From: Gemmatimonadota bacterium
GTDB lineage: Bacteria; Gemmatimonadota; Gemmatimonadetes; JACCXV01; JAHWKZ01
Length of the DNA stretch: 64,000 nt
Assembly (NCBI GenBank): GCA_033722155.1
Contig: JAWVZN010000002.1
Coordinates: 17,503-81,502 of the forward strand
Direction of reading: 5' to 3'
In this document: piece after piece, positions 31,909-60,090 of the stretch
Position numbering within the stretch: the first letter of the stretch is position 1
How the letters are laid out: each line of letters opens with the position of its first letter
Notes under the pieces: model-generated
What the model saw: the letters and a program-made list of their open reading frames with translations, nothing else
The model's database searches: none
Told to the model about the DNA's origin: nothing
Made by a program: the position numbers and the translations under genes

Positions 31909-34900
31909 CTACGGGATAACCAGGGCGCGGACGGAGCGCGTCTCCCCGCCGGCGACGAGCCGGATCACGTACACCCCCGGCGGAACCGGCACGCCCCGTT
32001 CGTCGCGGCCGTCCCAGCTCACCGCCTGCTCACCGCTCACCGTGCCCCCCGCCCGCAATTCGCGGACCCGTCGGCCGAGCACGTCGTAGACGGCGAGGTC
32101 GATCTGGACGGCGTCCTCTGCCGGCCCGGGATCGGGGACCGAGAAGCGGATCGTCGTCGATTGGCCGAGCCGGATGGGGTTCGGGAAGTTCTGCTCGAGC
32201 ACGAGCTCCCCCCCGGGCGCCGGCGGCTCCGGGGGCTCGGTCCCGAGGACCCGGCGGAAGTAGGCGTCGCGCGCCGCGATGGCCGCCTGCTGGAGCGCCT
32301 CCAGGTTCTCCCCCGCCACCAGGGCGACGGCCACCGTGTCGGTCGCCCCCGCCTCGATCGAGATCGGTCCCACCCCGATCACCTGCCACAGATCCTGGGG
32401 CTGGCCCACGCTCGTGTTCGTCTGTCCGCTCGCGAGGGCGTCCCACTTCTCGGCGTCGGAGAACTCCCCGCCGAAGGGATCGGGCGCCTCGGCCCGCTCC
32501 GGGGCGCGGTCGGCCAGCGGGTCGCCGAGTTCGCTCTCGAGGACCTCCTCGCGCCGCAGGACCGCGTAGGTGATCTGCCCCAGCGAGACGTCGTCGAGCC
32601 ACACGACCCCCAGAACCGGCTGGCCCGCTCGGGGGCCCTCTACGAACCCGAGCCGGTGTACGGGATCCCACCCCGCGATCTCGGAGGGCTCTCCGTCGGC
32701 CCCCGGCAAATCCCAGTCCGCGAACAGGCCGAGCCGCGCCCCCTCGATCGGGCGCTCGGCGGTGTTGGCCACGGCGTACTGGAGGAGTACGAACGCGTCC
32801 TCTCCGGATTCCCCGAAGGCGAAGGACTCCTGGCGGACCCGCAGACCCAGCGGCTCGATCTTCTTTCGGTCGTCGTAGCCCGTGGTGATCCGCTGGCCGC
32901 CGGCCGCCTGGTCGATGGCGATCGGGAAACCGAACAGGGGGATCCAGTCGGAGGCGTTCTGGGTGTCCTCGCCGTAGGGGATGTCGTCCGAGACCCGCTC
33001 GCGACCGGTCCCGGCCATGAAGCTCGCGTGGAAGAGCCAGTTCGGGCTGTCCGGCGGGAAGCGGAAACCATCCCCCCGCAGGGTGAAGCCGCCCTGATGG
33101 AGGCCGGTGTAGTAGCCGAGCCCGCCGAAGTTGTTGACCGAGAGCCGGACTCGGCCCCGGTCGTGGGTGGCGAAGCCGCCGGGGATCGGCTCGCCCGCCT
33201 TCAGCACCAGCGGGAACGGTCCGATCGCGGCTCCGTCGACCACCATCTCCAGGCGTACCGGCGAGCCGGGCGGGATGCCGGGATCGAGCCGGATCTCGAA
33301 GGCGTCCCCGTCGGCCGGGCCGAAGAACTCCCCCGTCCCCGCCGCGGCGAGATCCACGGTCGCCCGGCTCACGGTGACGCCGGGGGTGGGACTGGAGAGC
33401 GTGGCCGTGGACGGGCCGATCGCGGGCCCGTGGTTGGTGAGGCGGGGGACGATCGCGTGGGATCCGCCGGGCCGGATCACCAGGGTTTCCTCGGGCTGGG
33501 CGGGGACGAGCTTGCCCGCGGGCGCGTCGGCCGGACGGAAGCCGACCAGCCGGGCGAACGGCTCGCTCGGGCGGTCGACCCGGGCCACGGCCGCCGCGGC
33601 GTCGACCAGGCCGTGGCCGCTCCGGTTGTCGTCGCCCGCCGCGCCCAGATCGCGCGCGGTCTCCAGCACGATCGCCTTCGCCCTCTCCGGGGTGATCCTC
33701 GGATCCTTGGACCGCATCAGAGCGAACACCCCGCCAACCATCGGCGTAGCGAAGGAGGTGCCGGTCAGCAGGGTGAATTCGTTGAAGCGGTTCCGGGTGG
33801 TGACGGAGAGGCCGGGGGCGACCACCTCCGGCTTCGTGGCGTGCGGGCCGCCGCACTGCGAGGGCCCCTGCCCGCTGCTCGTCAACACCTGGTTCTGGCC
33901 GTCGACGGCGCCCACCGCGAAGGCGTTCACGGGCGAGTCGGCCCGGTTGGCGGGCGAGGTGACGCCCCGCCCGCCCTCGTTGCCGGCCGACCACACCACG
34001 ATCGCCCCCGCCGCCTCCAACGCATCGATGGCCTCGTCGAAGATCGGGTCGCACCGGATCCGGTTGCTCGCGGGATCCACGTCGGTGAGACCGTACGAGT
34101 TGCTCACGACGTCGGGGACGTCCGTGGCCGTCGAGGGATCCCCGTCGGGGTCCGCGAGCCACTGGAGGGTCTTGAGGGCGTTGGATACGAAGCCCTCGTC
34201 GTCCTGGAACACGTCGCCGGCGATCCAGGTCGACTCGAAGGCCACGCCGAAGCTTCGTTCCCCGCCGGTCATCACTCCCATCGACGCGGTTCCGTGGCCG
34301 TTGGAGAGGGCGGTGTCGTCGTCCTTCGGGAAGACCGTGAGTGCGATCGGGGCGTACCAGGAGGCGTCGCTGCCCGCGAAGCGTCCCCGCCAGCGATCCC
34401 CGAGCGTATCGTCCTCTCCGTTCACGCCGGTGTCGGTGTTGGCAACGATCGCGCCCTGGCCGAAGATCCCCCGCTCCCACACCTCGGCGACTCCGATCCG
34501 GACCAGCTCCTCGACCGGGGCCCGGCCTGCGTGCACCGCCCGTCCGTCCGGGCCCGCAGCCGCTCTCCCGAGCGCCAGCCGGCGGTCCTCCACCACCCGG
34601 GCGATCGCGGGGTGCGCCTCCAGCGCCCCGATCCGGGCCGGATCCACCATGGCGACCACCGCGTTCACAAGCCACAACCGGTCGAGCTCCTCGAAGGCGC
34701 CCTCCGCGCGAGCCGCCGAGAGGGGGGCGCGCGCCGCCACGAGCGACGTCTCGTGGATCGATCGGAGGTCGCGCACGAGCCGCTCGTGGCGGAGCTCCAG
34801 GGTCGGCGCCGAGATCGCCCGGGCCAAGGCCTGCTCCCGCGACGGGTGGTCGGTGAGGCGGACGATCACCCGGACTCGATCCCCGTCCGTCGGGAGGGGC

Positions 34901-34968
34901 GTGTCCATCGCCGACGCCGTTCCCAACGCGAGAAGCCCCGCGAGCGCGAGCGTCCCCCCGCGCCTCAC
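31909..34968 (-). CDS. Secreted S8-family subtilisin-like serine protease with a T9SS-type (Por) C-terminal sorting domain, 1019 aa
   Basis: ORF with a signal peptide (MRRGGTLALAGLLALGTASA) and the S8 catalytic triad (…ANTDTGVN… Asp, …NGHGTASMG… His, …GTSFATPMV… Ser). The C-terminal ~90 aa read LEQNFPNPIRLGQSTTIRF…LAVYDVLGRRVRELR…WDGRDERGVPVPPGVYVIRL…. The GTG start overlaps the upstream TGA (GTGA). Confidence 0.85.
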   Translation of the reverse strand: MRRGGTLALAGLLALGTASAMDTPLPTDGDRVRVIVRLTDHPSREQALARAISAPTLELRHERLVRDLRSIHETSLVAARAPLSAARAEGAFEELDRLWLVNAVVAMVDPARIGALEAHPAIARVVEDRRLALGRAAAGPDGRAVHAGRAPVEELVRIGVAEVWERGIFGQGAIVANTDTGVNGEDDTLGDRWRGRFAGSDASWYAPIALTVFPKDDDTALSNGHGTASMGVMTGGERSFGVAFESTWIAGDVFQDDEGFVSNALKTLQWLADPDGDPSTATDVPDVVSNSYGLTDVDPASNRIRCDPIFDEAIDALEAAGAIVVWSAGNEGGRGVTSPANRADSPVNAFAVGAVDGQNQVLTSSGQGPSQCGGPHATKPEVVAPGLSVTTRNRFNEFTLLTGTSFATPMVGGVFALMRSKDPRITPERAKAIVLETARDLGAAGDDNRSGHGLVDAAAAVARVDRPSEPFARLVGFRPADAPAGKLVPAQPEETLVIRPGGSHAIVPRLTNHGPAIGPSTATLSSPTPGVTVSRATVDLAAAGTGEFFGPADGDAFEIRLDPGIPPGSPVRLEMVVDGAAIGPFPLVLKAGEPIPGGFATHDRGRVRLSVNNFGGLGYYTGLHQGGFTLRGDGFRFPPDSPNWLFHASFMAGTGRERVSDDIPYGEDTQNASDWIPLFGFPIAIDQAAGGQRITTGYDDRKKIEPLGLRVRQESFAFGESGEDAFVLLQYAVANTAERPIEGARLGLFADWDLPGADGEPSEIAGWDPVHRLGFVEGPRAGQPVLGVVWLDDVSLGQITYAVLRREEVLESELGDPLADRAPERAEAPDPFGGEFSDAEKWDALASGQTNTSVGQPQDLWQVIGVGPISIEAGATDTVAVALVAGENLEALQQAAIAARDAYFRRVLGTEPPEPPAPGGELVLEQNFPNPIRLGQSTTIRFSVPDPGPAEDAVQIDLAVYDVLGRRVRELRAGGTVSGEQAVSWDGRDERGVPVPPGVYVIRLVAGGETRSVRALVIP

Positions 34969-35762
34969 AGCAGCTCCAGCTGGATGTCGGAGTAGCCGCC
35001 GGCGACGATCCGGCGGAGGCTGGCGAGACCGGTCTCGATCGGCATCTCGATCACCTTGAGCGCGTCCGGGGCGTACCGGAAGATCGCTTCGAAGGTCGCG
35101 CGCCAGTCGACCGCCCCTTCACCGATCGGGAGGTGCTCGTCGGAGAAGCCGTCGGTGTCGTGCAGATGGATCTCACGAACCGCCTCCCCGAGCGCCGGCC
35201 ACCACGCGTCGGGTTCGACCGAGCCGTAGATGTGGGTGTGGGCGACGTCGAGGGTGAAGCCGACGTGGCGGGCGTCGAGCTGGTCGCGGAGATCGAGCAG
35301 GATCCCGGGGTTCGGCTCGAACATGTTCTCCAGCAGGATCGTCACCCCCGCGTCGGAGGCGAGGTCCACCATCCGTTCCCACACCTCCAGCGAGAGGGCG
35401 AGCCATCCCGGGAAGGCCGACGCCGGCAACAACGGCAGGTAGCCGGTGTGAAACGTCATCTGGCGAGCGCCCAGCGCTCCACCGACCCCGATGGCCCGCT
35501 CCCAGCAGCGACGGGTGTGTTTGCGGATCACCGCGTCGAGGCTGCCGGGATTGAGGTCGAAGATCGGGGCGTGGACGGAGACCTCGATTCCCCGCTCCGC
35601 GAGCTGGTCGCCGAGCCGGCGGATCGCGGTCGTCCGCTCCAGGTTCAGCAGCCACTCGGTGTCGTAGAGCGCGACCTCGATTCCCACGTCTTCCTCCGCC
35701 AGCACGTCGATGTGCCGGCCGACTTCCGGGAACGACGTGCTGAGCGCGAACCGCTTGGCCAA
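34965..35762 (-). CDS. Sugar phosphate isomerase/epimerase (xylose-isomerase-like TIM barrel)
   Basis: 265-aa ORF: …ILLENMFEPNPG…LDVAHTHIYG…IHLHDTDGFSDEHLPIGEGAVDW…. Confidence 0.75.
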   Translation of the reverse strand: MAKRFALSTSFPEVGRHIDVLAEEDVGIEVALYDTEWLLNLERTTAIRRLGDQLAERGIEVSVHAPIFDLNPGSLDAVIRKHTRRCWERAIGVGGALGARQMTFHTGYLPLLPASAFPGWLALSLEVWERMVDLASDAGVTILLENMFEPNPGILLDLRDQLDARHVGFTLDVAHTHIYGSVEPDAWWPALGEAVREIHLHDTDGFSDEHLPIGEGAVDWRATFEAIFRYAPDALKVIEMPIETGLASLRRIVAGGYSDIQLELL

Positions 35763-35870
35763 CTCGCCTGCCTCGAGGTCGCCGCGGCCGTCCGGAGCCG
35801 CGAGATGGAGAGGGTCGGGGATCTGAACTCGTGATGACCGGCCGGCAATTTACGGTTCGGAGAACGGGCG

Positions 35871-36674
35871 TCAAACACGATCCAGCGCGTCCCTCAACTC
35901 GGCGATCCACTCCGCGGCGGCCTCGGGGCCCTCCCGGTCGAGCCGCTCGACGTAGGCGGTCCCCACCACGATTCCGTCCCCGATCAGGGCGGCTCGCCGA
36001 GCGGAGTCGGCGTCGCCGATCCCGAAGCCCACCACGATCGGGAGCGCCGTTTCTTCCCGCAGCACCTCCACCTGCTCCGCGAGCCGTTCGTCCGCTCCCG
36101 CTCCCTCCCCGGTCACCCCGGTACGGGCGATCAGATAGACGAACCCCTCGGAGAGGCGGGCCAGGACGCGAAGGCGCTCCGTCGGCGTGGTGGGGGCGGC
36201 CAGCCGGATCAGCGGCAACCCCCGGGCGGCGAAACGGGCGGAGACCTCCGCCCCTTCGTCGAACGGCAGATCGGCGATCAGTACGCCGGCGAAGCCGGCG
36301 TCGGCGCACTCGGCGGCGGCCCGGTCGACGCCGCGGGCCCAGAGGGGGTTGAGGTAGGTGAAGAGCACCAGCGGCGGGCGGGTGTTCACGGCGTAGGCGG
36401 CGCAGATCTCCAGGGCGTCCTCCAGCGTGACGCCTCCCGCGATCGCCCGCTGGCTGGCGGCTGCGATCACCGGGCCGTCCGCGAGAGGGTCCGAGAAGGG
36501 GATCCCGAGCTCGACGGCGTCGGCGCCGGCCTCCGCCAGGGCCTCGAGGGCCGGAAGCGTCGTGTCCCGGTCGGGGAACCCGGCGGTGAGGTACGGGATC
36601 AGCAGTTTCCGGCCGGCGTCCCGTGCCTCGGCCAGGCGGGCGCCCATCGGGCTCGGATCCACCATCGCGCTCAT
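35871..36674 (-). CDS. trpA: Tryptophan synthase alpha chain
   Basis: Trimmed from ORF 35871..37406 to MSAMVDPSPMGARLAEARDAGRKLLIPYLTAGFPD…AVELGIPFSDPLADGPVI…VGFGI…. The ATG at 36672-36674 overlaps the upstream TGA (ATGA). An alternative start is M10 at 36647. Confidence 0.9.
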   Translation of the reverse strand: MSAMVDPSPMGARLAEARDAGRKLLIPYLTAGFPDRDTTLPALEALAEAGADAVELGIPFSDPLADGPVIAAASQRAIAGGVTLEDALEICAAYAVNTRPPLVLFTYLNPLWARGVDRAAAECADAGFAGVLIADLPFDEGAEVSARFAARGLPLIRLAAPTTPTERLRVLARLSEGFVYLIARTGVTGEGAGADERLAEQVEVLREETALPIVVGFGIGDADSARRAALIGDGIVVGTAYVERLDREGPEAAAEWIAELRDALDRV

Positions 36675-38101
36675 TCCGGGAGGAAGTGGCGGCCGACGTC
36701 GATCCCGTAGCGACCGGGATCCAGCACCTTGATGATCGTCCGGACGTACTCCCCGCCCCGGTCCCGCTCGGCGAGATCCACCACGGGCCCCTCGATACGG
36801 TTCCCCTGGTGGTCGGCGATCAGCCTGGCGTGCGGCCTGTCGAGCCGGTCGGGACCCGGGCTCCGAGCCGTCACCACGGCCAGCTCCAGGGTGTCGAGCA
36901 GCGCCAGGGTGCCCGGCGGGTACACGCCGAGCATGCTCACGAACGCCTTCAGCAGCACCGGATCGTAGCGGGTTCCCGACCACTTCATCATCGCCTCGAT
37001 CATCTCGGGCGGGCTGATGGGATCGGTCTTGTATACCCGGGGCGTGGTCCCCGCGTCGAAGGTGTCGCAGATGGCGACGATCCTGCTGAAGAACGTCAGC
37101 TTCCTCGGCGCGAACAGCTCCGGATAGCCCGACAGGTCCACGTTGAGGTGGTGCTCGAAGGCGACCAGCATCTCCCGCAGGGGAATCCGCCCGGTCGGCC
37201 GGCGCTCGATCAGGTGGTGGACCCCGTAGCGCACGTGGTTCTGCATCTCCTCCCACTCCTCGTGCTCGAGCGAGCCCGCCTTCTTCAGGATCTCCAGGGG
37301 CACGTCCACCTTGCCGATGTCGTGCATCAGCGCGCACAGGCCGAGATCGTACAGCTCGAAGCGCGAGAGCCCGATCCGTTGTCCCAGCGAGATCGAGAAG
37401 ACGCACACGTTCACCGAGTGGGTGAACGTCGGTTCGTCGTAGTCACGGAGATTCGTCAGCCCGACCAGCAGCGTCTCGTCGTCGAGCACCTGATCCACGA
37501 TCGACTGCACCGCCCGCTTGACCTGGTCGGTGCGGACGGCCCGCCCCGCACGAAGGCTCTCCATGAAATCGCGGGTCACCGCCACCCCGTGCCGGTAGGT
37601 GCGCTCGGCCCGCGCCCGGGCGTCGGGGTCCTCGACGAGGGTCTCCGTCGTCTCCTCGCGCAGCGGGAGCACCCGCACGCCCTCCACTCCCGCCTCCCCC
37701 AGTCGTCGAGCGGTTCGCTCCACCGAGCCCGCGTCCCCTCCCTCGAGACGCCCCACGACGTAGGCGAACCGGGCCGTCTCGTCGGGATCGAGCGGTCGAG
37801 TCCACTCGAACCCGCCCACCTCCAGAGATTGGAAGAATCGGAGCAGGTTCTGGTGGACGGTGTAATGGCGCAGCTCGCTGCGGACGCGCGAGCCGTTCAC
37901 GAGCACCGTATCCTGGCCCGTCTCGAGGCGGGCCCATCCGTCGATCTGCCACAGCTCCGAGAGGGTCCGGGAGAGCCGCTCGGCGGAGGCGCGGAGGGTG
38001 TCGTTGCCCGGCTCGTACAGCTGGCCCGAGCGAAACGCGACCAGGAGGTTCTGGACCAGCTCGCGGCCGAGCGCCAGAAGCGGCTGGGACACCTCCATCA
38101 T
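36671..38101 (-). CDS. HD-GYP domain phosphodiesterase (c-di-GMP family) with an uncharacterized ~200-aa N-terminal domain, 476 aa
   Basis: Trimmed from ORF 36671..39376 to [30 protein letters not shown]…. It has the HD motif …CALMHDIGKVDVP… and the GYP motif …HHLNVDLSGYPE…. The ATG overlaps the upstream TGA (ATGA). Confidence 0.85.
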   Translation of the reverse strand: MMEVSQPLLALGRELVQNLLVAFRSGQLYEPGNDTLRASAERLSRTLSELWQIDGWARLETGQDTVLVNGSRVRSELRHYTVHQNLLRFFQSLEVGGFEWTRPLDPDETARFAYVVGRLEGGDAGSVERTARRLGEAGVEGVRVLPLREETTETLVEDPDARARAERTYRHGVAVTRDFMESLRAGRAVRTDQVKRAVQSIVDQVLDDETLLVGLTNLRDYDEPTFTHSVNVCVFSISLGQRIGLSRFELYDLGLCALMHDIGKVDVPLEILKKAGSLEHEEWEEMQNHVRYGVHHLIERRPTGRIPLREMLVAFEHHLNVDLSGYPELFAPRKLTFFSRIVAICDTFDAGTTPRVYKTDPISPPEMIEAMMKWSGTRYDPVLLKAFVSMLGVYPPGTLALLDTLELAVVTARSPGPDRLDRPHARLIADHQGNRIEGPVVDLAERDRGGEYVRTIIKVLDPGRYGIDVGRHFLPE

Positions 38102-39768
38102 CGGCCTCCCGTGGCGGCGCTCCCGTCCCACGATCCGAGGACCTGGCGAGCGGTCCGGCGGACCAGCGCGTGCTTGTGCTCGGTCGCCTCCTCGACCGCC
38201 TCGTGGGCCTCCTCCGTGCCGGTGGCGCCGAGCCCCACGACGACACACGCCAGCTCCTCCGGATCGGCGCTCCGGAACAGGCCGCTGCGGCGCTCCAGCC
38301 GCTTGATCAGGTCCTTCACCACCCGTTCTCCACCGAGCGCCCCGTACGCCTCGAAGACGAGCCGCTGCTCGGTCGGAGGACGCTCGCGCCATCCGTCGCT
38401 CTCCACGATCTCGGAGATCCGGGGCAGAGCCGGCGCGTAGCGATGCGCTACCAGATGGCGCAGGGCGTAGAGGCGGACCGTCGGATCGGGATCGTCCACC
38501 GTCCCCGCCACGACCTGGAGGGAGCGTCCGCCCCCGAACTGCTTGAGGGCCTGGAGGGCGTCGCGGCGCACTTCGGCGTCGGAGGAGTCGAGGCAGCGCG
38601 CCAGGCCGTCGATCAGCCGGGGGTCGCCGAGATGGCCGGCGAGCCAGGCCGCCGCGGAGGCGAGCCGGGGATCGTCGCTCCCGAGCGCCTCCGACAGCTC
38701 GTCTATGCGCTCGCGCCCCAGCTCGGCCAGCGCCCCGGCGATGGCGGAGTGCTGAAACAGCTTCTTCAGGTCCCCGACGAGGGCGAGCAGCCGGATCGGG
38801 TCCTCGCGCCCGAAGGTCCGGTAGTAGCCGGCCGCGACCTGCTCCTCGACCGAACCCGATTCCACGGCGTCGGCCAGCCGGCCGAGCACCGGCTCGGAGA
38901 GGGCGGCCTCGCGCATCCGGGCGAAGGCGATCCGTCCCCGCTCTCCGCACCCATCGCTCTCGAGGTACGGGACGAACAGCTGGTGGAGCTTCCGGATCTC
39001 GTCCCAGGAGCCCTCGTCGAGGAGGCGCTCCTGCATCTCCGCCAGGGCCTCCAGCAGGGGGATGGGTTCCTGCCGCACCGGGTGGATCAGCAGCTCCCGG
39101 AGGCAGGTGAGCCCCTCGTGGAGGAGCCCCCGGCTCCGCTCGGCCTCCAGCTCCGCCTGGAGGGAGGCCATGTCCTCGTCGTCGAGGAAATAGAGGGTCC
39201 CGTCGAAATCGGACACGGGGCCCCTCGGGTCCTCGGCCGCGGCCCGATCCTCCGGATCCAGCTCGATCCGTCCCTTGTCCTCGTGCTCGTCCCGCTCCGC
39301 GGACGGCGGCACCCACTCCGCGTCCTTCAGGTCCTCGACGAAGGTGTAGCGGAGGTGGGTGAAGCTCTCCTGCCACAACCTCCCGATCAGGCCCTCATCG
39401 CGCTCCTCCTCCGTCTCCCGGGCGGATCGCGCGAGATGGTCGAGGAAGGCGGCGAGCTCGGAGCGAGCGAGTCCGGTGTAGAAGATCACCTTGCGGACAC
39501 CCTCCCGGTGGAGGGAGCGGGGAAGCGACTCCCTTCCCTCCTGGCGGTAGACCACCGTGTCGTCGACCGCTAGCGCGTCCTCCTCGACCTCGAGCTCGAT
39601 GGTCCCGTGGAGGTCGAGGAGGCTCCCGATCCTCCCGGTCGCCCGCTCCTCGATGTCCCGCCGCTCGGGGTGATCCGCGTCGTAGAGCCGACGCGCCTTG
39701 AACGCACGGACGAGCTCCTGCACCAGCTCGGAGGCGGACTCCGCGTAGTCGGTGCGCTCGGGGCTCAT
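38098..39768 (-). CDS. HEAT-repeat (PBS-lyase-like) protein whose N-terminal domain is homologous to that of the adjacent HD-GYP protein, 556 aa
   Basis: Trimmed from ORF 38098..40728 to [38 protein letters not shown]…. HEAT repeats occur, for example …[31 protein letters not shown]…. A strong SD, GGAGGGAGGAGG, lies immediately upstream of the ATG, which overlaps the trpB TGA (ATGA). Confidence 0.75.
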
Positions 39769-40955
39769 CCTCCTCCCTCCCTCTCGCGCCGGGCCACCGC
39801 CTCCACGTCCTTGTCGCCGCGCCCCGAGAGGCAGACGAGCACCCGGGAATCCGCCTCGATCGGGCACCCGTCCCGCCGCAGGAAGGCGATCGCGTGGGCG
39901 CTCTCCAGGGCGGGGATGATGCCCTCCAGCTCGCCGAGCAGATGGAAGGCGTCGAGGGCCTCGTCGTCGGTGACCGCGTCGTAGGCGACCCGTCCCCGCT
40001 CCTTCAGCTCCGAGTGCTCCGGTCCCACCCCGGGATAGTCCAGCCCGGCGGAGACGGAGTGGGCGCCCAGGACCTGACCGTCGCCGTCCTGCAGGAGATA
40101 GCTCAGGGCTCCGTGGAGAACCCCGGGGCGGCCCTTCGAGAGGGTCGCCGCGTGGCGTCCGTCGAGCCCCTCTCCGGCGGCCTCCACGCCGTACAGCTCG
40201 ACCGGGTCGTCGAGAAAGGCGTGGAACACCCCGATCGCGTTCGACCCGCCGCCGACGCACGCCACGATCGCGTCGGGCAGCTCCCCCCACCGCTCCCGGC
40301 ACTGGCTCCGGGCCTCCCGCCCGATCACCGCCTGCAGCTCGCGCACGATCAGGGGGTAGGGGTGGGGTCCGACCACGGAGCCGATCACGTAGTGGGTGGT
40401 GTCCACGTTCGTCACCCAGTCGCGGATGGCGGCGTTGGTGGCGTCCTTCAAGGTTCTCGTCCCGTCGTCGACCGCCACGACCTCGGCTCCCAGCAGCTCC
40501 ATCCGGTACACGTTGAGGGCCTGCCGGCGGGTGTCCTCGCGGCCCATGTAGACGACGCAGTCGAGCCCGAAGCGCGCGCACGCGGTGGCGGTGGCGACCC
40601 CGTGCTGTCCGGCGCCCGTCTCGGCGATGATCCTCCGCTTCCCCATCCGCAGCGCGAGCAGCACCTGTCCGAGGGTGTTGTTGATCTTGTGGGCCCCGGT
40701 GTGGTTGAGGTCCTCGCGCTTGAGCCACACCCCGTAACCGGTCTCCCGGGAGAGGCGGGGCGCCTCGGTGAGCGGGGAGGGTCGGCCGACGTAGTCGGCG
40801 AGGAGCGCGTCGAGGCTCGAGCGGTAGGCCGGATCGCGGGCCGCCTGCTGCCAGGCGCTCTCGAGCTCGTCGAGGGCGGCGATCACCGTCTCGGGCACGA
40901 AGCGGCCGCCGAAGGCGCCGAAATACCCCCTGGGGGTCGTCCCGGGGCGGCTCAT
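39765..40955 (-). CDS. trpB: Tryptophan synthase beta chain
   Basis: Trimmed from ORF 39765..41582 to [23 protein letters not shown]…[11 protein letters not shown]…. The ATG overlaps the trpF TGA (ATGA). Confidence 0.95.
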
Positions 40956-41608
40956 CGTGACGGCCCCGGCTTCCGGGCGACCTCGCGGGCGGCCCGCACG
41001 AAGGCGCGGATCTTCGCCGGGTCCTTCCTGCCGGGAGCGTCCTCGAGACGGCTGGACGCGTCGACCCCGTCGGGCGCTACGACCTCGATCGCGCGGCGCA
41101 CGTTCCCCGGCCCCAGCCCGCCCGCCAGGACGAGCGGTACCGTTCGCCGTGCCGGGGGCCACCGCGTGGCCAGTCGCTCCCACGGCAGGGTGTCCCCGGT
41201 GCCCCCCCGACCTGCCTCGCCGGCGTCGAGAAGGACGGCGTCGGCCGCCGACTCCCACGGCTCCAGCCGGGCGGAGCCGCCGCTCCAGGGGACGGCCTTC
41301 CACACCGGCCGGCCGGTGGCGCGCCGCGCCTCCCGGCACAGCTCGGGGCTCTCGGCGCCGTGGAGCTGGAGCGCCGCCAGATCGAGGTCGGCGGCGAGGC
41401 GCTCGAGCTCGGCGATCCGCGGGTCCACGAACACCCCCACCCACGACGCCTCCACGTCGCCGACCAGGCGCGCGGCCTGCCCGGGCGTGACCCGACGGAC
41501 CGACGGGGCGAAGACGAGCCCCAGGTAATCGGCTCCCGCCTCGACTGCGGCTCGCGCGGACGCGGGATCGGAGATCCCGCACACCTTCACGCGAAGCTCC
41601 CCCGTCAC
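40952..41608 (-). CDS. trpF: Phosphoribosylanthranilate isomerase
   Basis: C-terminal part of ORF 40952..42505. [33 protein letters not shown]…. GTG start overlaps the trpC TGA (GTGA). Confidence 0.85.
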
Positions 41609-42432
41609 GGGCCCGAGCCCCCCGCTTCCACCAGGGCGGCCAGAGCCGCCCCGGGCCGGGGGGATCGCATCAGGTGCTCCCCCACGAGCACGGCGTCCGC
41701 ACCGGCGTCGCGCGCCCGAGCGACGTCCTCCGGCCCGCTCACGCCGCTCTCCGCGACGAGGATGACCGAGTCCCCGAGTCGCTCCCGCAACCCGGCCACC
41801 GTGGCCAGGCCTCGGGGAAGGGACACCTCCAGGCTCCGCAGGTCGCGGGCGTTCACCCCGATCACCTCGGGATCGATCGCCGTCGCCCGATCGGCCTCCT
41901 CCTCCGCGTGGATCTCCACCAGCAGGCCCAGACCGGCCTCCTCCGCCGCGGCGGCGATCGCCTCGAGGGCTGCATCGTCGACCGCGGCCACGATCAGGAG
42001 CGCGGCGTCGGCCCCGGCGGCGCGGCTCTCCCACACCTGCCACGGATCCACGAGGAAGTCCTTTCGAAGGACCGGCACCGCGGCCGCCGGCGCGACCGCC
42101 TCCAGGTCCGCCAGCGCCCCGTCGAACGCGGCGTCCGTGAGGACGCTGACGGCGGCGGCTCCCCGCTCGGAGTAGAGGCGGGCCCGGGCGGCGACGTCCA
42201 CTTCCACGGCCAGGTCGCCCGCCGACGGGCTTCGCCGCTTGATCTCGGCGATGACCGCGGTGCCCGGCCCGCGCAGCGCTTCCGCCCACGGTCGCGCCGG
42301 CGAGCGCTCGGCCGCCTCCCCCCGGAGCTCGGCCACGGAACGGGCCCCTCTCTCCCGCCTCACCGCGGTACGCTTCCGGCGCACCGCCTCGGCGAGAAAC
42401 CGGGATTTGACTTTCGGCGTATCTTCGGTCAT
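41605..42432 (-). CDS. trpC: Indole-3-glycerol phosphate synthase
   Basis: ORF 41605..42486 trimmed to the ATG at 42430-42432: [21 protein letters not shown]…[15 protein letters not shown]…. Confidence 0.85.
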
Positions 42433-42504: not shown

Positions 42505-43110
42505 ATGAATCTAACCAAGCGCCAGCGTGAAATCTACGACTACATCAAGTCCTTCCTCGAGGAGCGGGGATATGCGCCCAGCCTGGAGGAGATCGGGGCT
42601 CACTTCGGCCTCTCCTCGGTCGCCACGGTGCACGAGCACCTGGCGAACCTGGAGGCGAAGGGCGTGCTGCGGCGCGATCCGAACCGCAGCCGGGCCGTCG
42701 AGCTCACCCGTCCGGGCCTCACCGACGCGGTCGAGCTGCCGCTGCTCGGGCGAGTCGCCGCCGGCGAGCCGCTCGAAGCGATCGCCGACAACGAGACGAT
42801 CGCGGTGCCCGAGGAGATGCTCGGCCGCGGCGAGACCTTCGCCCTCCGGGTGAGCGGGGACTCGATGATCGACGAGCACGTGGCCGACGGAGACTATCTC
42901 ATCGTGGAGCGGCGGGAGACGGCCCGGGACGGCGAGCGCGTGATCGCCCTGATCGACGGAGAGCGGGCGACCTTCAAGACCTTCCGCACCGAGGGCGACG
43001 GCCGGATCCGGCTGCAGCCCGCCAACGACCGGCACGCGCCGCAGGTGTACGAGGCGGACCGGGTGCGGGTCCAGGGCGTCGCGATCGGGGTGCTGCGGAA
43101 GTACCGCTGA
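42505..43110 (+). CDS. lexA: LexA repressor (S24 peptidase)
   Basis: C-terminal part of + ORF 41674..43110: MNLTKRQREIYDYIKSFLEERGYAPSLEEIG… (wHTH) and …LRVSGDSMID… (catalytic Ser). An alternative ATG lies at 42493. Confidence 0.9.
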   Translation: MNLTKRQREIYDYIKSFLEERGYAPSLEEIGAHFGLSSVATVHEHLANLEAKGVLRRDPNRSRAVELTRPGLTDAVELPLLGRVAAGEPLEAIADNETIAVPEEMLGRGETFALRVSGDSMIDEHVADGDYLIVERRETARDGERVIALIDGERATFKTFRTEGDGRIRLQPANDRHAPQVYEADRVRVQGVAIGVLRKYR

Positions 43111-43136: not shown

Positions 43137-44198
43137 CTAGGACGCCTCCCGCGAGAGTTGCCGGGAAAGGTCCACGAGCGCCTTCAGGGTCTCCACGGCC
43201 GCCCCCGACGCGATCGTCTCCCGGGCTCTCTCCACCCCTTCGCGAAGGCCGTCCGCCACTCCGGCCACGAACAGGGCGGCGCCCGCATTGGCGGCGGTGA
43301 TCGCCTCCTGTGCCGCGGTCCCCTTCCCCGCCAGCACCGACGCCAGGATCCGCGCGTTCTCCGCCGGATCGCCTCCGGCGAGCTGCTCGGGATCGTGTGG
43401 CTCGATGCCCAGGTCGCCCGGCTCCACCACGTCGGTCGTCACCGCGTCCTGCCGCACGCTCGCCACGATGGTGGGGCCGGAAACCGAGATCTCGTCGAGC
43501 CCCTCGCGGCCGTGCACCACCAGCGCGTGCTCGCTTCCGAGCTCGTGGAGGACGCCGGCCATCAGCTCCACCACGTCGGGCCCCGGGACCCCGATCACCT
43601 GCCGGGTGGCGCCGGCGGGATTGGTGAGGGGGCCCAGCAGGTTGAACACCGTCCGGATCGCGATCTCGCGCCGGGCCCCGATCGCGTGACGCATCGCGGG
43701 GTGGAACCGGGGCGCGAAGAGGAAGCCGATCCCGATCTCGTCGATGCAGCGCCCCACCCCCTCGGGCGGCAGGTCGATGGCGACCCCCAGCGACTCGAGC
43801 ACGTCGGCCGAGCCCGAGCGGGAGGAGGCCGCCCGGTTGCCGTGCTTGGCGACGGCGACCCCGGCCGCTGCGGTGACGAAGGCGGCCGTCGTGGAGATGT
43901 TGAAGGTGCCGGAGAAGTCGCCACCGGTCCCGCAGGTGTCGACCAGGGGGGCGCGCTCGGTCTCGACTCTCTGTGCGCGGGAGCGCATGACACGGGCGGC
44001 CCCGGCGATCTCCCCGGGGGTCTCCCCCTTCGTGCGGAGCGCCGCCAAAAGCGCCGCGATCATGATCGCGGTCGTCTCCCCGTCCATGACGGTGGCGAAC
44101 AACGCCTCCGACTCCGCGGCGGTGAGATCGCGCCCCTCCGTCAGCGTGCGAAGGCACGTCCGGGGATCGCCCTCCGCCCGCCGGGCGGCCGGGCTCAC
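43137..44198 (-). CDS. trpD: Anthranilate phosphoribosyltransferase
   Basis: In ORF 43137..45950. VSPAARRAEGDPRTCLRTL…DTCGTGGDFSGTFNISTTAAFV…. GTG start overlaps the transporter TGA (GTGA). Confidence 0.9.
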   Translation of the reverse strand: MSPAARRAEGDPRTCLRTLTEGRDLTAAESEALFATVMDGETTAIMIAALLAALRTKGETPGEIAGAARVMRSRAQRVETERAPLVDTCGTGGDFSGTFNISTTAAFVTAAAGVAVAKHGNRAASSRSGSADVLESLGVAIDLPPEGVGRCIDEIGIGFLFAPRFHPAMRHAIGARREIAIRTVFNLLGPLTNPAGATRQVIGVPGPDVVELMAGVLHELGSEHALVVHGREGLDEISVSGPTIVASVRQDAVTTDVVEPGDLGIEPHDPEQLAGGDPAENARILASVLAGKGTAAQEAITAANAGAALFVAGVADGLREGVERARETIASGAAVETLKALVDLSRQLSREAS

Positions 44199-45487
44199 TC
44201 CTTCGCTTCGCTCGTCCAAACCGGCTCTTCCCCCCCGGCGACGATCGGGGGGTGCGCGGCGAGCTCTCCCTCGGTGGCCGCCACCACGACGGCGCAGGAG
44301 GAGTCGCCGGTGATGTTCAAGGCGGTGCGGCACATGTCGAGGATTCGATCCACGCCGAGGATCAGGGCGATCCCCTCGAGGGGGATGCCGACGGTCTTGA
44401 GGACCAGCGCCAGGGTGATCATGCCGACCCCGGGAACGCCCGCCGCGCCGATCGAGGCGAGAGTGGCGGTGAGCACCACCATCAGCTGCTGCTCGATCCC
44501 GAGCTGGAGGCCGTACACCTGGGCGATGAATATCGTGGCCACGCCCTGGTACAGGGCGGTGCCGTCCATGTTGATCGTCGCCCCGAGCGGGAGCACGAAC
44601 GCGCTCACCTCCTCGCTCACCCCCAGGTTCTCCTCGCACGACTCCATCGTCACCGGGAGCGTGGCGTTCGACGACGAGGTGCTGAAGGCCACGAGCTGCG
44701 CGGGCGCGATCCCTTTGAAGAACGGAACCGGGCTCATTCCGCTGAACAGCTTCACCGCAGCCGGGTAGACGAGGACGCCGTGCACGACGAGGCCCACGAT
44801 CACCACCACCGAGTAGACGACCAGCGTCTTCAGGATCCCCAGGCCGTACTCCCCGATGATCGCCGCGATCAGCGCGAAGACGCCGTACGGGGCGAGCTTC
44901 ATCACCAGGTGGACGAGCTCGATCATGGCGTCGTTGACGGTGTCCATGAAGGAGATCACCGGCTCGGCCTTGGAGCGCTCCAGGTAGGTGAGGGCGATGC
45001 CGAAGACGAGGGCGAAGAAGATCACCTGGAGCATCGTGGCCTCGGCGAGCGCCTCGATCGGGTTCGTGGGGATGATCTCGAGCAGGGTGTCGACCATCGA
45101 GGGCGCCTCTGTGGCCTGCTGGACGTTCACCTCCGCGGCCCCCGCGAAATCCTCGAGGAGCCGATCCTTCACGTCGCCGGCCAGCCGCGCGCCGGGCTTC
45201 ACCAGGTTCGCCAGGGTGAGCCCGATCGTGATGGCGATCGAGGTGGTGACCAGGTAGTACGTCACGGTCTTGAGCCCGATCCGGCCGAGCTTGACCAGGT
45301 CTCCCAGGCTCGCCACCCCCACCAGGATGGAGGCGAAGACGAGGGGCACGACGATCATCGTGATGAGCCGGATGAACGCGTCCCCGATCGGCTTGATGAC
45401 GGCGATCCCGGGCCCGACGAGCAGTCCGGCCACCGCGCCGAGGACGAGTCCGAGCAGGATCTGGGTGTGGAGGGGGATCCGCTTCAC
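44195..45487 (-). CDS. Dicarboxylate/amino acid:cation symporter (DAACS family, GltP/DctA/SstT-like)
   Basis: 430-aa ORF with a GTG start: MKRIPLHTQILLGLVLGAVAG…GTALYQGVATIFIAQ…; it has multiple TM segments. Confidence 0.85.
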   Translation of the reverse strand: MKRIPLHTQILLGLVLGAVAGLLVGPGIAVIKPIGDAFIRLITMIVVPLVFASILVGVASLGDLVKLGRIGLKTVTYYLVTTSIAITIGLTLANLVKPGARLAGDVKDRLLEDFAGAAEVNVQQATEAPSMVDTLLEIIPTNPIEALAEATMLQVIFFALVFGIALTYLERSKAEPVISFMDTVNDAMIELVHLVMKLAPYGVFALIAAIIGEYGLGILKTLVVYSVVVIVGLVVHGVLVYPAAVKLFSGMSPVPFFKGIAPAQLVAFSTSSSNATLPVTMESCEENLGVSEEVSAFVLPLGATINMDGTALYQGVATIFIAQVYGLQLGIEQQLMVVLTATLASIGAAGVPGVGMITLALVLKTVGIPLEGIALILGVDRILDMCRTALNITGDSSCAVVVAATEGELAAHPPIVAGGEEPVWTSEAKE

Positions 45488-59932: not shown

Positions 59933-60008
59933 TGGTGGGCCGCCCAGGAATCGAACCTGGAACCTACGGATTAAGAGTCCGTTGCTCTGCCAGTTGAGCT
60001 AGCGGCCC
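59933..60008 (-). tRNA. tRNA-Lys (anticodon CTT), CCA encoded
   Basis: Minus-strand sequence GGGCCGCTAGCTCAACTGGCAGAGCAACGGACTCTTAATCCGTAGGTTCCAGGTTCGATTCCTGGGCGGCCCACCA. It folds as a cloverleaf with a 7-nt anticodon loop CT-CTT-AA and a T-loop TTCGATT. Confidence 0.85.
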
Positions 60009-60014
60009 GGAACT

Positions 60015-60090
60015 TGGGGTGGGCGAGGGGATTCGAACCCCCGACTCCCAGGACCACAACCTGGTGCTCTACCGCTGAGCTACGCCCACC
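60015..60090 (-). tRNA. tRNA-His (anticodon GTG), G-1 and CCA encoded
   Basis: Minus-strand sequence GGTGGGCGTAGCTCAGCGGTAGAGCACCAGGTTGTGGTCCTGGGAGTCGGGGGTTCGAATCCCCTCGCCCACCCCA. The anticodon loop is TT-GTG-GT, and an extra 5' G(-1) is paired with the discriminator C. Confidence 0.85.

What the first reader, a model, noticed from the sequence alone, without database searches (positions are those of the whole stretch)
36671..39768. HEAT-repeat protein and HD-GYP phosphodiesterase with a shared N-terminal domain, inserted and translationally coupled between trpB and trpA
What the sequence shows: trpB and trpA are almost universally adjacent and coupled. Here two genes sit exactly between them, joined at every junction by 4-nt ATGA overlaps: trpB-HEAT at 39765-39768, HEAT-HD-GYP at 38098-38101, and HD-GYP-trpA at 36671-36674. 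The two inserted proteins have clearly homologous N-terminal domains of about 200 aa (HEAT: [63 protein letters not shown]; HD-GYP: LGRELVQNLLVAFRSGQLYEPGNDTLRASAERLSRTLSELWQIDGWARLETGQDTVLVNGSRV). One is fused to PBS-lyase-type HEAT repeats and the other to an HD-GYP (c-di-GMP phosphodiesterase-type) domain; the HD and GYP motifs are present, so the phosphodiesterase is probably active. Inference: this is a paralogous sensor/partner pair whose expression is stoichiometrically locked to tryptophan synthase, possibly linking tryptophan or indole status to cyclic-dinucleotide signalling. The shared domain resembles in architecture the uncharacterized N-terminal domains found on many HD-GYP proteins (DUF3391-like, from memory). 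I am not aware of a described trp operon carrying such an insertion.
Basis: partly seen in the sequence, partly recalled or inferred. Interest (0 to 1): 0.85.

Follow-up and report, generated by a model that had tools for sequence, protein, structure and literature searches.

The report
HEAT/HD-GYP signalling pair inside trp operon
Two overlapping genes, a HEAT-repeat protein and an apparently active HD-GYP cyclic-di-GMP phosphodiesterase that share a previously undescribed N-terminal domain, sit between trpB and trpA in nearly all Gemmatimonadota loci sampled. The same pair occurs without any trp genes in other phyla, so it is a self-standing signalling module and a direct tie to tryptophan is unproven.

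Summary
On the minus strand, trpC, trpF, trpB, the HEAT gene, the HD-GYP gene and trpA are joined by 4-nt GTGA/ATGA overlaps. The flanking genes are bona fide trpB and trpA.

The two inserted proteins share a homologous N-terminal domain of about 135 aa, not about 200 aa (hhalign 96%, E 4e-9; same AlphaFold topology). It is not DUF3391 and has no Pfam or PDB relative. The HD-GYP domain keeps every metal ligand, HHxxxDxxGYP and the RxYK c-di-GMP specificity motif.

The arrangement is not an assembly artefact. Of 55 GTDB Gemmatimonadota loci that I could score on at least one flank, 46 show trpB-HEAT-HDGYP-trpA. That holds even where the HEAT proteins are only 26-30% identical, and the overlaps are conserved.

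The pair does not depend on tryptophan genes:
- At least four Gemmatimonadota lineages lost every trp gene at this locus but kept the pair.
- Nitrospirota and Nitrospinota carry the same overlapping pair in unrelated neighbourhoods.
- Some "Deltaproteobacteria" MAGs fuse both halves into one protein.

Best reading: an old, widespread, probably heteromeric HEAT-adaptor/HD-GYP module that became fixed inside the trp operon in ancestral Gemmatimonadota. It is co-expressed with tryptophan synthase, but a direct Trp/indole link is unproven.

The parts
43137..44201 (-). trpD (anthranilate phosphoribosyltransferase); start codon approximate
   Evidence: Pfam Glycos_transf_3 at 318 bits plus Glycos_trans_3N
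42505..43110 (+). lexA, in the opposite orientation between trpD and trpC; divergent from the trpC..trpA operon
   Evidence: Pfam LexA_DNA_bind plus Peptidase_S24. The position is conserved in the related loci.
42413..42428 (-). CCGAA-N6-CCGAA direct repeat (CCGAAGATACGCCGAA, followed by AGTCAA) in the lexA / operon divergent control region; candidate LexA operator
   Evidence: It is the only copy in the 64-kb window (0.09 expected). Of 107 exact copies in 964 kb of related loci, 96 lie in this intergenic region. It is retained in the trp-less loci.
41605..42432 (-). trpC (indole-3-glycerol-phosphate synthase); start uncertain because the repeat element overlaps the first codons
   Evidence: Pfam IGPS at 231 bits
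40952..41611 (-). trpF (PRA isomerase); GTGA overlap with the trpC stop
   Evidence: Pfam PRAI at 130 bits; sequence
39765..40955 (-). trpB (tryptophan synthase beta); ATGA overlap with the trpF stop
   Evidence: TIGR00263 at 593 bits against a cut-off of 392; sequence
38098..39768 (-). Gene for the 556-aa N-domain/HEAT-repeat protein; ATGA overlap with the trpB stop
   Evidence: Identical to NCBI MDX1622535.1.
39340..39759 (-). Shared N-terminal alpha/beta domain in the HEAT protein (residues about 4-143)
   Evidence: hhalign 96% probability. AlphaFold pLDDT above 90 with topology H-H-E-E-E-H-E-H-H-E. No Pfam match.
38179..38751 (-). HEAT repeats (residues about 340-530)
   Evidence: PF13646 HEAT_2 at 64 bits, three stretches
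36671..38101 (-). Gene for the 476-aa N-domain/HD-GYP phosphodiesterase; ATGA overlap with the HEAT stop
37667..38092 (-). Shared N-terminal alpha/beta domain in the HD-GYP protein (residues about 4-145)
   Evidence: hhalign. AlphaFold gives the same topology as the HEAT copy. Joint alignment A4.
36929..37432 (-). HD-GYP catalytic domain (residues about 224-391) with H228, H260-D261, K264, K274, H289, E316-H317-H318, D322, G325-Y326-P327, D346/D349 and R355-x-Y357-K358
36722..36907 (-). C-terminal beta-rich domain of the HD-GYP protein (residues about 399-460); no family assigned
   Evidence: AlphaFold strands E399-402, 407-412, 424-429, 440-442 and 456-460. No Pfam hit.
35871..36674 (-). trpA (tryptophan synthase alpha); ATGA overlap with the HD-GYP stop and no obvious Shine-Dalgarno sequence
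   Evidence: TIGR00262 at 221 bits against a cut-off of 102; sequence
35847..35874 (-). The only sigma-70-like promoter match on the operon strand, right after trpA and upstream of the next gene; marks the likely end of the transcription unit
   Evidence: This is a consensus match only.

Best explanation
What is shown:
- The two inserted genes are one conserved two-gene module: [N-domain]-[helical linker]-[HEAT repeats] plus [N-domain]-[S-helix]-[HD-GYP]-[small beta domain].
- The module is old and widespread. It occurs as a gene pair in Gemmatimonadota, Nitrospirota and Nitrospinota, and as single fused polypeptides in some deltaproteobacterial MAGs.
- In Gemmatimonadota it lies between trpB and trpA, and stop and start codons overlap at every junction.

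What is inferred:
- The two proteins assemble about 1:1 through their homologous N-terminal domains. The HEAT solenoid would act as an adaptor or regulatory subunit.
- The HD-GYP subunit would be an active metal-dependent phosphodiesterase. In this clade it is most likely specific for c-di-GMP (RxYK motif).
- The module entered the trp operon in the ancestor of the sampled Gemmatimonadota and has stayed there.
- The cell therefore makes the module from the same mRNA as tryptophan synthase, by termination-reinitiation.
- TrpA translation has become dependent on translation of the HD-GYP gene.
- The relation to tryptophan is most likely only shared expression (PDE level follows trp-operon transcription). 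It is probably not a physical or ligand-level link, because the module survives loss of the trp genes and works in other contexts elsewhere.
For: Module identity:
- HEAT_2 and HD_5/HD hits.

Shared domain:
- BLASTP E 7e-5 and hhalign 96%, E 4e-9.
- Matching high-confidence AlphaFold topologies.
- A joint profile finds 7,422 cluster representatives.

Obligate pairing:
- HEAT is followed by HD-GYP in every locus long enough to show it, with a 4-nt overlap in 68 of 69.
- The pair overlaps by 8 nt in Nitrospinota and 11 nt in Nitrospirota, and both partners carry the N-domain there.
- Natural fusions of 1,393-1,795 aa carry N-domain, HEAT, N-domain and HD in that order.
- Overlapping unidirectional pairs are tightly coupled and often encode heteromer subunits (PMC10666635, title and abstract).

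Embedding is ancestral and stable:
- 46 of 55 loci scorable on at least one flank show trpB and trpA on either side, on both deep branches of the HEAT+HD-GYP tree.
- No promoter-like or terminator-like site lies inside trpC..trpA on the coding strand.

Independence from trp:
- Trp-less loci keep lexA, HEAT and HD-GYP in at least four separate tree positions.
- The pair sits in non-trp contexts in other phyla.

Outgroup control:
- In all 18 metagenome loci found with TrpA as query that show both genes, trpB and trpA are directly adjacent.
Against: - No transcript, protein or enzymatic data exist. Heteromer formation is inferred only from shared domains, overlaps and fusions, and no multimer model could be run.
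- The position between trpB and trpA has been kept in species whose HEAT proteins are only 26-30% identical. That is more than simple inertia would easily explain and could reflect selection for a real trp link.
- The HD-GYP domains of the fused deltaproteobacterial forms lack the GYP motif, so those relatives may be receptors rather than enzymes.
- Orthologues in the Gemmatimonadaceae-type clade carry RxYQ instead of RxYK. This motif change has been associated with cGAMP preference, so the substrate may differ between clades.
- The locus set was collected with the HEAT protein as bait, so Gemmatimonadota that lack the pair were not sampled.
Confidence: 0.6

Rival explanations
1. The pair is functionally tied to tryptophan synthase. 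The N-domains would sense Trp, indole or a pathway intermediate, or bind TrpA/TrpB, so that cyclic-dinucleotide levels report tryptophan status. The locked stoichiometry would then be the selected feature.
For: - The exact position between trpB and trpA is conserved, with overlapping codons, in 46 loci on both deep branches.
- trpB and trpA are otherwise directly adjacent in all 18 outgroup loci.
- trpA has no Shine-Dalgarno sequence of its own and starts inside or at the stop of the HD-GYP gene.
Against: - At least four lineages lost all trp genes at the locus and kept the pair.
- The same pair in Nitrospirota and Nitrospinota, and the fusions, are never next to trp genes.
- No known Trp- or indole-binding fold was detected in the N-domain.
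Confidence: 0.15
2. The pair is a neutral hitchhiker. It landed between trpB and trpA once and is merely trapped, because overlapping start and stop codons make excision deleterious for TrpA expression. The co-expression would have no adaptive meaning.
For: - Non-trp genes of unknown function between trpB and trpA are known in Burkholderia and Flavobacterium and have been discussed as possible 'morons' (PMC2395257).
- The pair is self-sufficient elsewhere.
Against: - Both proteins are under clear purifying selection, with invariant catalytic residues and 23 invariant columns in the HEAT family.
- The pair is kept when the trp genes are lost, so it is not just tolerated.
- This reading does not conflict with the module being functional. 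It differs from the best explanation only on whether co-expression matters.
Confidence: 0.15
3. The relevant partner in Gemmatimonadota is lexA rather than trp. The operon that carries the pair is always divergent from lexA, and the shared control region holds conserved CCGAA-N6-CCGAA direct repeats. These have the spacing of the alphaproteobacterial LexA box GTTC-N7-GTTC. On this reading the HEAT/HD-GYP module, and with it the trp genes, belong to the SOS regulon.
For: - The lexA-divergent arrangement and the repeat are present in 56 loci, including every trp-less locus with lexA on the contig.
- 96 of 107 exact motif copies in 964 kb lie in that intergenic region, and the window has a single copy.
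- Direct-repeat LexA boxes with this spacing are documented (PMC4951493).
- The right half of the motif survives although the trpC codons it overlapped are gone in the trp-less loci.
Against: - No other SOS gene promoter could be checked, so the motif is not shown to be a LexA site. It may regulate lexA only.
- The only repeated extra copy lies inside a coding region.
- There is no lexA next to the pair in the other phyla.
Confidence: 0.2
4. The arrangement is an assembly or annotation artefact: a chimeric MAG contig or frameshifted genes.
For: The window comes from a metagenome-assembled genome.
Against: - The same order and the same overlaps appear in more than 60 independent assemblies from different studies, including contigs of 0.9-4 Mb.
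- All ORFs are intact and full length relative to their homologues.
Confidence: 0.01

Closest known systems
Bd1817 / PA4108 / VC2497 family (DUF3391-HD-GYP c-di-GMP phosphodiesterases)
   Different: The N-terminal domain has a different topology. It starts with two long helices followed by a small sheet, whereas DUF3391 has four beta-strands and then two helices. It fails the Pfam threshold. It also comes with an obligate HEAT-repeat partner carrying the same domain. Unlike Bd1817, the GYP motif is intact.
PmGH (4MCW) and PA4781 / DvhD: structurally characterised active HD-GYP phosphodiesterases
   Same: All metal ligands (H, HD, H, EHH, D), the Lys of HDxGK, the GYP Tyr and the RxYK pair align residue for residue.
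   Different: The sensor domains are GAF, REC or PAS there and a novel domain here. The KPG motif is KAG here. The extra C-terminal beta-rich domain (residues 399-460) is not present in those structures.
Non-trp genes inserted between trpB and trpA in Burkholderia, some Flavobacterium and a Sargasso Sea contig (Xie et al. 2003 as cited in Kagan et al. 2008, PMC2395257)
   Same: Foreign gene(s) of unknown role interrupt the otherwise near-universal trpB-trpA adjacency inside an otherwise normal trp operon.
   Different: The phylum and the gene content differ. Here two genes form a recognisable signalling module, are joined to both neighbours by overlapping codons, and are conserved across a whole phylum. 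The paper gives no evidence that those other inserts are related.
PBS-lyase-type HEAT-repeat proteins (NblB, CpcE/F)
   Same: The C-terminal third matches HEAT_2 and weakly matches NblB and CpcE models over about 90 residues.
   Different: Scores are far below the equivalog cut-offs (36.6 against 300). There is no phycobilisome context, and the N-terminal 335 residues are unrelated.
Fused N-domain/HEAT/N-domain/HD proteins of deltaproteobacterial MAGs (for example TNE50701.1, 'HD domain-containing protein')
   Same: The modules occur in the same order as the two genes here, within one polypeptide.
   Different: They are 1,393-1,795 aa long with a Pro-rich N-terminal extension of about 270-620 aa. 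The HD domain keeps HDxGH but lacks GYP. They are never next to trp genes, and two paralogues lie in tandem in L079.

Membership tests
HD-GYP domain (class II c-di-GMP phosphodiesterase) | HD-superfamily metal ligands: H, HD, H, (E)HH, D | tested here: met
   H228, H260-D261, H289, E316-H317-H318 and D346/D349 are invariant in 17 family members. They align to the corresponding PmGH residues.
HD-GYP domain (class II c-di-GMP phosphodiesterase) | HHExxDGxGYP signature with the GYP tyrosine | tested here: met
   EHHLNVDLSGYP at residues 316-327. D322, G325, Y326 and P327 are invariant.
HD-GYP domain (class II c-di-GMP phosphodiesterase) | Substrate-binding KPG and RxY[K/R] motifs (Galperin and Chou 2021) | tested here: met
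   R355-V-Y357-K358 is present. The KPG motif reads K274-A-G, and K274 is invariant. Gemmatimonadaceae-type orthologues have RxYQ.
HD-GYP domain (class II c-di-GMP phosphodiesterase) | HD-GYP fold including the C-terminal helices | tested here: met
HD-GYP domain (class II c-di-GMP phosphodiesterase) | Hydrolysis of c-di-GMP (or cGAMP/pGpG) | not testable with these tools
   Needs purified protein and an enzyme assay.
DUF3391 (PF11871) / Bd1817 family N-terminal domain | Match to PF11871 at the gathering score | tested here: not met
   17.1 bits against a cut-off of 27.8. Only residues 149-193 match, to profile positions 91-135 of 136. There is no hit at all in the HEAT protein's residues 1-335 or in 14 homologues.
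DUF3391 (PF11871) / Bd1817 family N-terminal domain | Four beta-strands followed by two long helices | tested here: not met
HEAT repeat proteins (PF13646 HEAT_2) | Tandem HEAT repeats above the Pfam threshold | tested here: met
   64 bits against 27.7, with three stretches in residues about 340-530.
Phycobilin lyase / NblB (PBS-lyase HEAT) equivalogs | Score at the NCBIfam equivalog cut-off | tested here: not met
   NblB scores 36.6 against 300 and CpcE 21.2 against 330.
Tryptophan synthase genes (trpB, trpA) | Equivalog-level match of the flanking genes | tested here: met
   TIGR00263 scores 593 against 392. TIGR00262 scores 221 against 102.
Translationally coupled operon | Stop/start overlaps of 1 or 4 nt at the junctions, conserved in relatives | tested here: met
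   (49 of 57, 68 of 69, and overlaps at most HD-GYP>trpA junctions). Actual coupling and co-transcription cannot be tested here.
LexA operator of the direct-repeat type (GTTC-N7-GTTC) | Direct repeat with 11-bp period in the lexA promoter region, conserved across the clade | tested here: inconclusive
   TTCGG-N6-TTCGG on the lexA strand is conserved in 56 loci. Binding by LexA and presence at other SOS promoters were not tested.

The most novel reading that the evidence does not exclude
In Gemmatimonadota the N-domain pair has been recruited as a sensor of tryptophan-pathway status, by binding indole, Trp, IGP or serine, or by docking on the TrpA/TrpB complex. On this reading, making HEAT and HD-GYP in fixed proportion to tryptophan synthase converts amino-acid supply directly into c-di-GMP level. 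That would be the reason the trpB-trpA junction has been held open for the whole history of the phylum.
Probability: 0.12. Interest if true: 0.85.

Novelty: new variant of a known kind. Interest (0 to 1): 0.6.

Why it matters
Three things would follow if this holds.

1. It defines an undescribed, large family. The N-domain profile finds 7,422 cluster representatives at E no higher than 1e-3. The family consists of HD-GYP proteins with an obligate HEAT-repeat partner and a new shared domain that is absent from Pfam and the PDB. HD-GYP enzymes are the less understood class of c-di-GMP phosphodiesterases, and most of their sensor domains are unassigned.

2. It gives a rare, phylum-wide exception to one of the most conserved gene adjacencies known, trpB-trpA. 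Natural 'deletion experiments' (the trp-less lineages) and natural fusions already constrain the interpretation.

3. It offers directly testable hypotheses in cultivable Gemmatimonas species: heteromer formation, PDE activity, and coupling of TrpA translation to the inserted genes.

The possible LexA operator in front of the operon would also be the first proposal I am aware of for an SOS box in this phylum.

Tried and rejected
- DUF3391 assignment of the shared domain: rejected.
- PDB sequence search with the N-domain profile: only spurious short hits.
- Defence-system reading: PADLOC gave nothing beyond a generic HEAT match.
- RNA leader, attenuator or riboswitch for the operon: Rfam found only two tRNAs in the window.
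- Alternative output domains on the N-domain. Ten mid-length hits were only truncated HEAT-type proteins. Only the best 150 of 7,422 hits could be inspected.
- P0357 (1,007 aa, a HEAT+HD-GYP 'fusion' in a high-GC organism). Its junction reads like out-of-frame sequence, so I discounted it as a frameshift artefact.
- An extra CCGAA repeat copy in four loci lies inside a GAF-protein coding region and gives no regulon evidence.
- An unbiased census with TrpA as bait in metagenomes returned only 36-47%-identical TrpAs from other lineages. They serve as an outgroup, not as a census of Gemmatimonadota.
- Literature searches for this pair, for the arrangement in Gemmatimonadota and for a Gemmatimonadota LexA box found nothing.
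- My first trpC and trpD coordinates were in the wrong frames. They were corrected.

Full report
**1. The observation.**
The window is about 72% G+C. On the minus strand it carries trpD, then lexA on the opposite strand, then trpC, trpF, trpB, a 556-aa gene, a 476-aa gene and trpA. An AP_endonuc_2 (xylose-isomerase-like) gene and a 1,019-aa S8 peptidase follow.

Reading the junctions directly shows ATGA at 39765-39768, 38098-38101 and 36671-36674, exactly as reported. The same device joins trpF to trpB (ATGA, 40952-40955) and trpC to trpF (GTGA). GGAGG-type Shine-Dalgarno sequences precede the HEAT and HD-GYP starts, and none is obvious before trpA.

The flanking genes are genuine. trpB scores 593 bits on TIGR00263 (cut-off 392) and trpA scores 221 bits on TIGR00262 (cut-off 102). 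The inserted proteins match HEAT_2 (64 bits, residues about 340-530) and HD_5/HD (61 and 38 bits, residues 224-382).

**2. The shared domain.**
BLASTP aligns residues 14-73 of both proteins at 32% identity, E 7e-5. Family profiles built from 20 HEAT-type and 17 HD-GYP-type homologues align with 96% probability, E 4e-9, over 134 columns.

AlphaFold models built on those alignments give the same high-confidence topology for residues about 1-145 of both proteins. The order is two long helices, a small beta-meander, helix, strand, two helices, strand. A joint alignment is nearly gap-free. The homology is therefore real, but the domain is about 135 aa rather than about 200 aa.

No Pfam family, no PDB sequence and no PDB structure matches the domain. 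The structure searches were dominated by the helical middle region of the model, so this negative is weak.

**3. The enzyme.**
All HD-GYP metal ligands are present and conserved in the family: H228, H260-D261, H289, E316-H317-H318 and D346/D349. So are the HDxGK lysine, D322, G325-Y326-P327 and K274. All align to PmGH, V-cGAP3 and PA4781.

**4. Conservation of the arrangement.**
The exact HEAT protein is NCBI MDX1622535.1 from a Gemmatimonadota MAG. A scan of one genome per GTDB species with the HEAT alignment returned 74 loci, all from MAGs. Nearly all are labelled Gemmatimonadota, and a few are labelled only 'bacterium'.

tblastn with the window's proteins shows the order lexA(-) ... trpF-trpB-HEAT-HDGYP-trpA in the great majority. 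This includes loci whose HEAT protein is only 26-30% identical. Of 55 loci scorable on at least one flank, 46 have both trpB and trpA, 7 lack both (with two more lacking trpB where the trpA side is cut off), and the rest are cut by contig ends.

The overlaps are conserved:
- trpB>HEAT: 4 nt in 49 of 57 loci.
- HEAT>HD-GYP: 4 nt in 68 of 69 loci.
- HD-GYP>trpA: 4 nt in 10 of 54 loci. In most others the nearest candidate trpA start lies 17-32 nt upstream of the HD-GYP stop.

No promoter-like or terminator-like site lies within trpC..trpA on the coding strand. One promoter-like site follows trpA. As an outgroup control, all 18 metagenome loci retrieved with TrpA that show both genes have trpB directly next to trpA. 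An assembly artefact is excluded.

**5. The pair is a self-standing module.**
Three lines of evidence detach it from tryptophan.

(a) About ten Gemmatimonadota loci read lexA(-) | HEAT | HD-GYP | AP_endonuc_2 | S8 peptidase, with no trpD, trpC, trpF, trpB or trpA. On a neighbour-joining tree of HEAT+HD-GYP these fall in at least four separate places. One is nested inside a trp-containing clade, and both deep branches contain the embedded form. The embedded state is therefore ancestral. The trp genes were lost from the locus repeatedly, and the pair was kept.

(b) A profile of the N-domain finds 7,422 cluster representatives among 1.84 billion. The same two-gene unit occurs in Nitrospinota, overlapping by 8 nt, between carAB and futalosine-pathway genes. 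It also occurs in Nitrospirota, overlapping by 11 nt, after tatA-tatC and convergent with a GAF-GGDEF cyclase. Both partners carry the N-domain in each case.

(c) Proteins of 1,393-1,795 aa from deltaproteobacterial MAGs carry N-domain, HEAT, N-domain and HD in one chain. This is a Rosetta-stone argument that the two products act together.

Overlapping unidirectional pairs are known to be tightly translationally coupled and enriched for heteromer subunits (PMC10666635).

**6. Most likely mechanism.**
Shown:
- The domain composition and the intact catalytic site.
- Obligate pairing and overlap across phyla.
- Fusions.
- Embedding in the trp operon across the sampled Gemmatimonadota, and independence from the trp genes.

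Inferred:
- The two N-domains mediate a roughly 1:1 HEAT:HD-GYP complex.
- The HEAT solenoid acts as an adaptor or regulator of an active c-di-GMP phosphodiesterase.
- In Gemmatimonadota the complex is produced from the trp mRNA by termination-reinitiation, and TrpA synthesis now depends on translation through the insert.
- Phosphodiesterase abundance follows trp-operon transcription.

I put 0.6 on this package. The rivals are a real ligand or physical link to tryptophan synthase (0.15), pure hitchhiking (0.15) and LexA/SOS control of the operon (0.2, not exclusive with the best explanation).

**7. Regulation, noticed on the way.**
The divergent region between lexA and the first operon gene contains a conserved direct repeat, CCGAA-N6-CCGAA. 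It lies at window 42413-42428, and many Gemmatimonadaceae-type loci have two tandem copies.

It is the only copy in the window, with 0.09 expected. Of 107 exact copies in 964 kb of related loci, 96 lie at this spot. It is retained in the trp-less loci although it overlaps what were the first trpC codons. On the lexA strand it reads TTCGG-N6-TTCGG, with the 11-bp period of the alphaproteobacterial LexA box GTTC-N7-GTTC (PMC4951493). Whether LexA binds it, and whether it controls the operon as well as lexA, is untested.

**8. Comparison with what is known.**
The catalytic part is a standard HD-GYP and passes all sequence and fold criteria. The N-terminal domain fails both DUF3391 criteria. The HEAT part is generic HEAT_2 and fails the phycobilin-lyase and NblB equivalogs.

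Non-trp genes between trpB and trpA have been reported in Burkholderia, Flavobacterium and a Sargasso Sea contig (PMC2395257). The interruption itself therefore has precedent. The content, the overlaps and the phylum-wide conservation do not, as far as the searched literature shows.

**9. Verdict.**
I rate it a new variant of a known kind: an HD-GYP phosphodiesterase subfamily with an obligate HEAT partner and a new shared domain, fixed inside the trp operon in Gemmatimonadota. Interest is 0.6.

Noticed in passing
window 42413-42428 (minus strand), and the lexA-upstream regions of L001-L078: A conserved direct repeat CCGAA-N6-CCGAA, often in two tandem copies, lies in the divergent lexA / operon control region. 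It has the spacing of the GTTC-N7-GTTC LexA box. This is a candidate SOS operator for Gemmatimonadota.
   Followed up: partly
window 42505-43110 (+): lexA sits in the opposite orientation between trpD and trpC. This placement is conserved across the Gemmatimonadota loci and survives in lineages that lost all the trp genes around it.
   Followed up: partly
HD-GYP residues 355-358 (window about 37028-37039); alignment A2: The substrate-specificity motif is RxYK in the window's clade but RxYQ in Gemmatimonadaceae-type orthologues (P0191, P0200, P0207, P0222, P0229). This change has been associated with a shift towards cGAMP.
   Followed up: no
window 36722-36907 (minus strand): The HD-GYP protein ends in a conserved beta-rich domain of about 80 aa (YPPGT..LLDT.E.AVV ... 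RP..R) with no Pfam assignment.
   Followed up: no
L080/L081 7001-9091: The Nitrospinota HEAT-type partner (696 aa) carries two tandem copies of the N-domain (residues 13-144 and 155-287).
   Followed up: partly
L079 1659-10413; L083 1207-5913: Deltaproteobacterial MAGs encode fused N-domain/HEAT/N-domain/HD proteins of 1,393-1,795 aa. They have a Pro-rich N-terminal extension and an HD domain that keeps HDxGH but lacks GYP. Two paralogues lie in tandem in L079.
   Followed up: partly
L084 11145-12545 and L085 11305-12702: In Nitrospirota the pair lies after tatA-tatC and a 92-aa ORF. It is convergent with a GAF-GGDEF diguanylate cyclase and secA.
   Followed up: no
window 31909-35762 (minus strand): A 1,019-aa S8 peptidase (its orthologues carry a FlgD_ig-type C-terminal domain) and an AP_endonuc_2 / xylose-isomerase-like gene follow trpA. 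They are conserved neighbours in the window's clade, including the trp-less loci.
   Followed up: no
window 37000-37499: G+C drops to 0.64 over the HD-GYP catalytic region, against 0.70-0.75 around it.
   Followed up: no
window 59936-60089 (minus strand): Two adjacent tRNA genes; these are the only Rfam matches in the window.
   Followed up: no
HEAT protein residues 185-215 (window about 39124-39216): An invariant motif (T)LYFLD(D/E)ED..L..E...E (Y193, L195, D196, E210) follows a disordered acidic linker. It is conserved from this clade to the 26%-identical relatives. It may be a docking motif.
   Followed up: no
L004 4166-6004: In one 4-Mb Gemmatimonadota genome trpF and trpB are called as a single 612-aa fusion upstream of the HEAT gene.
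   Followed up: no
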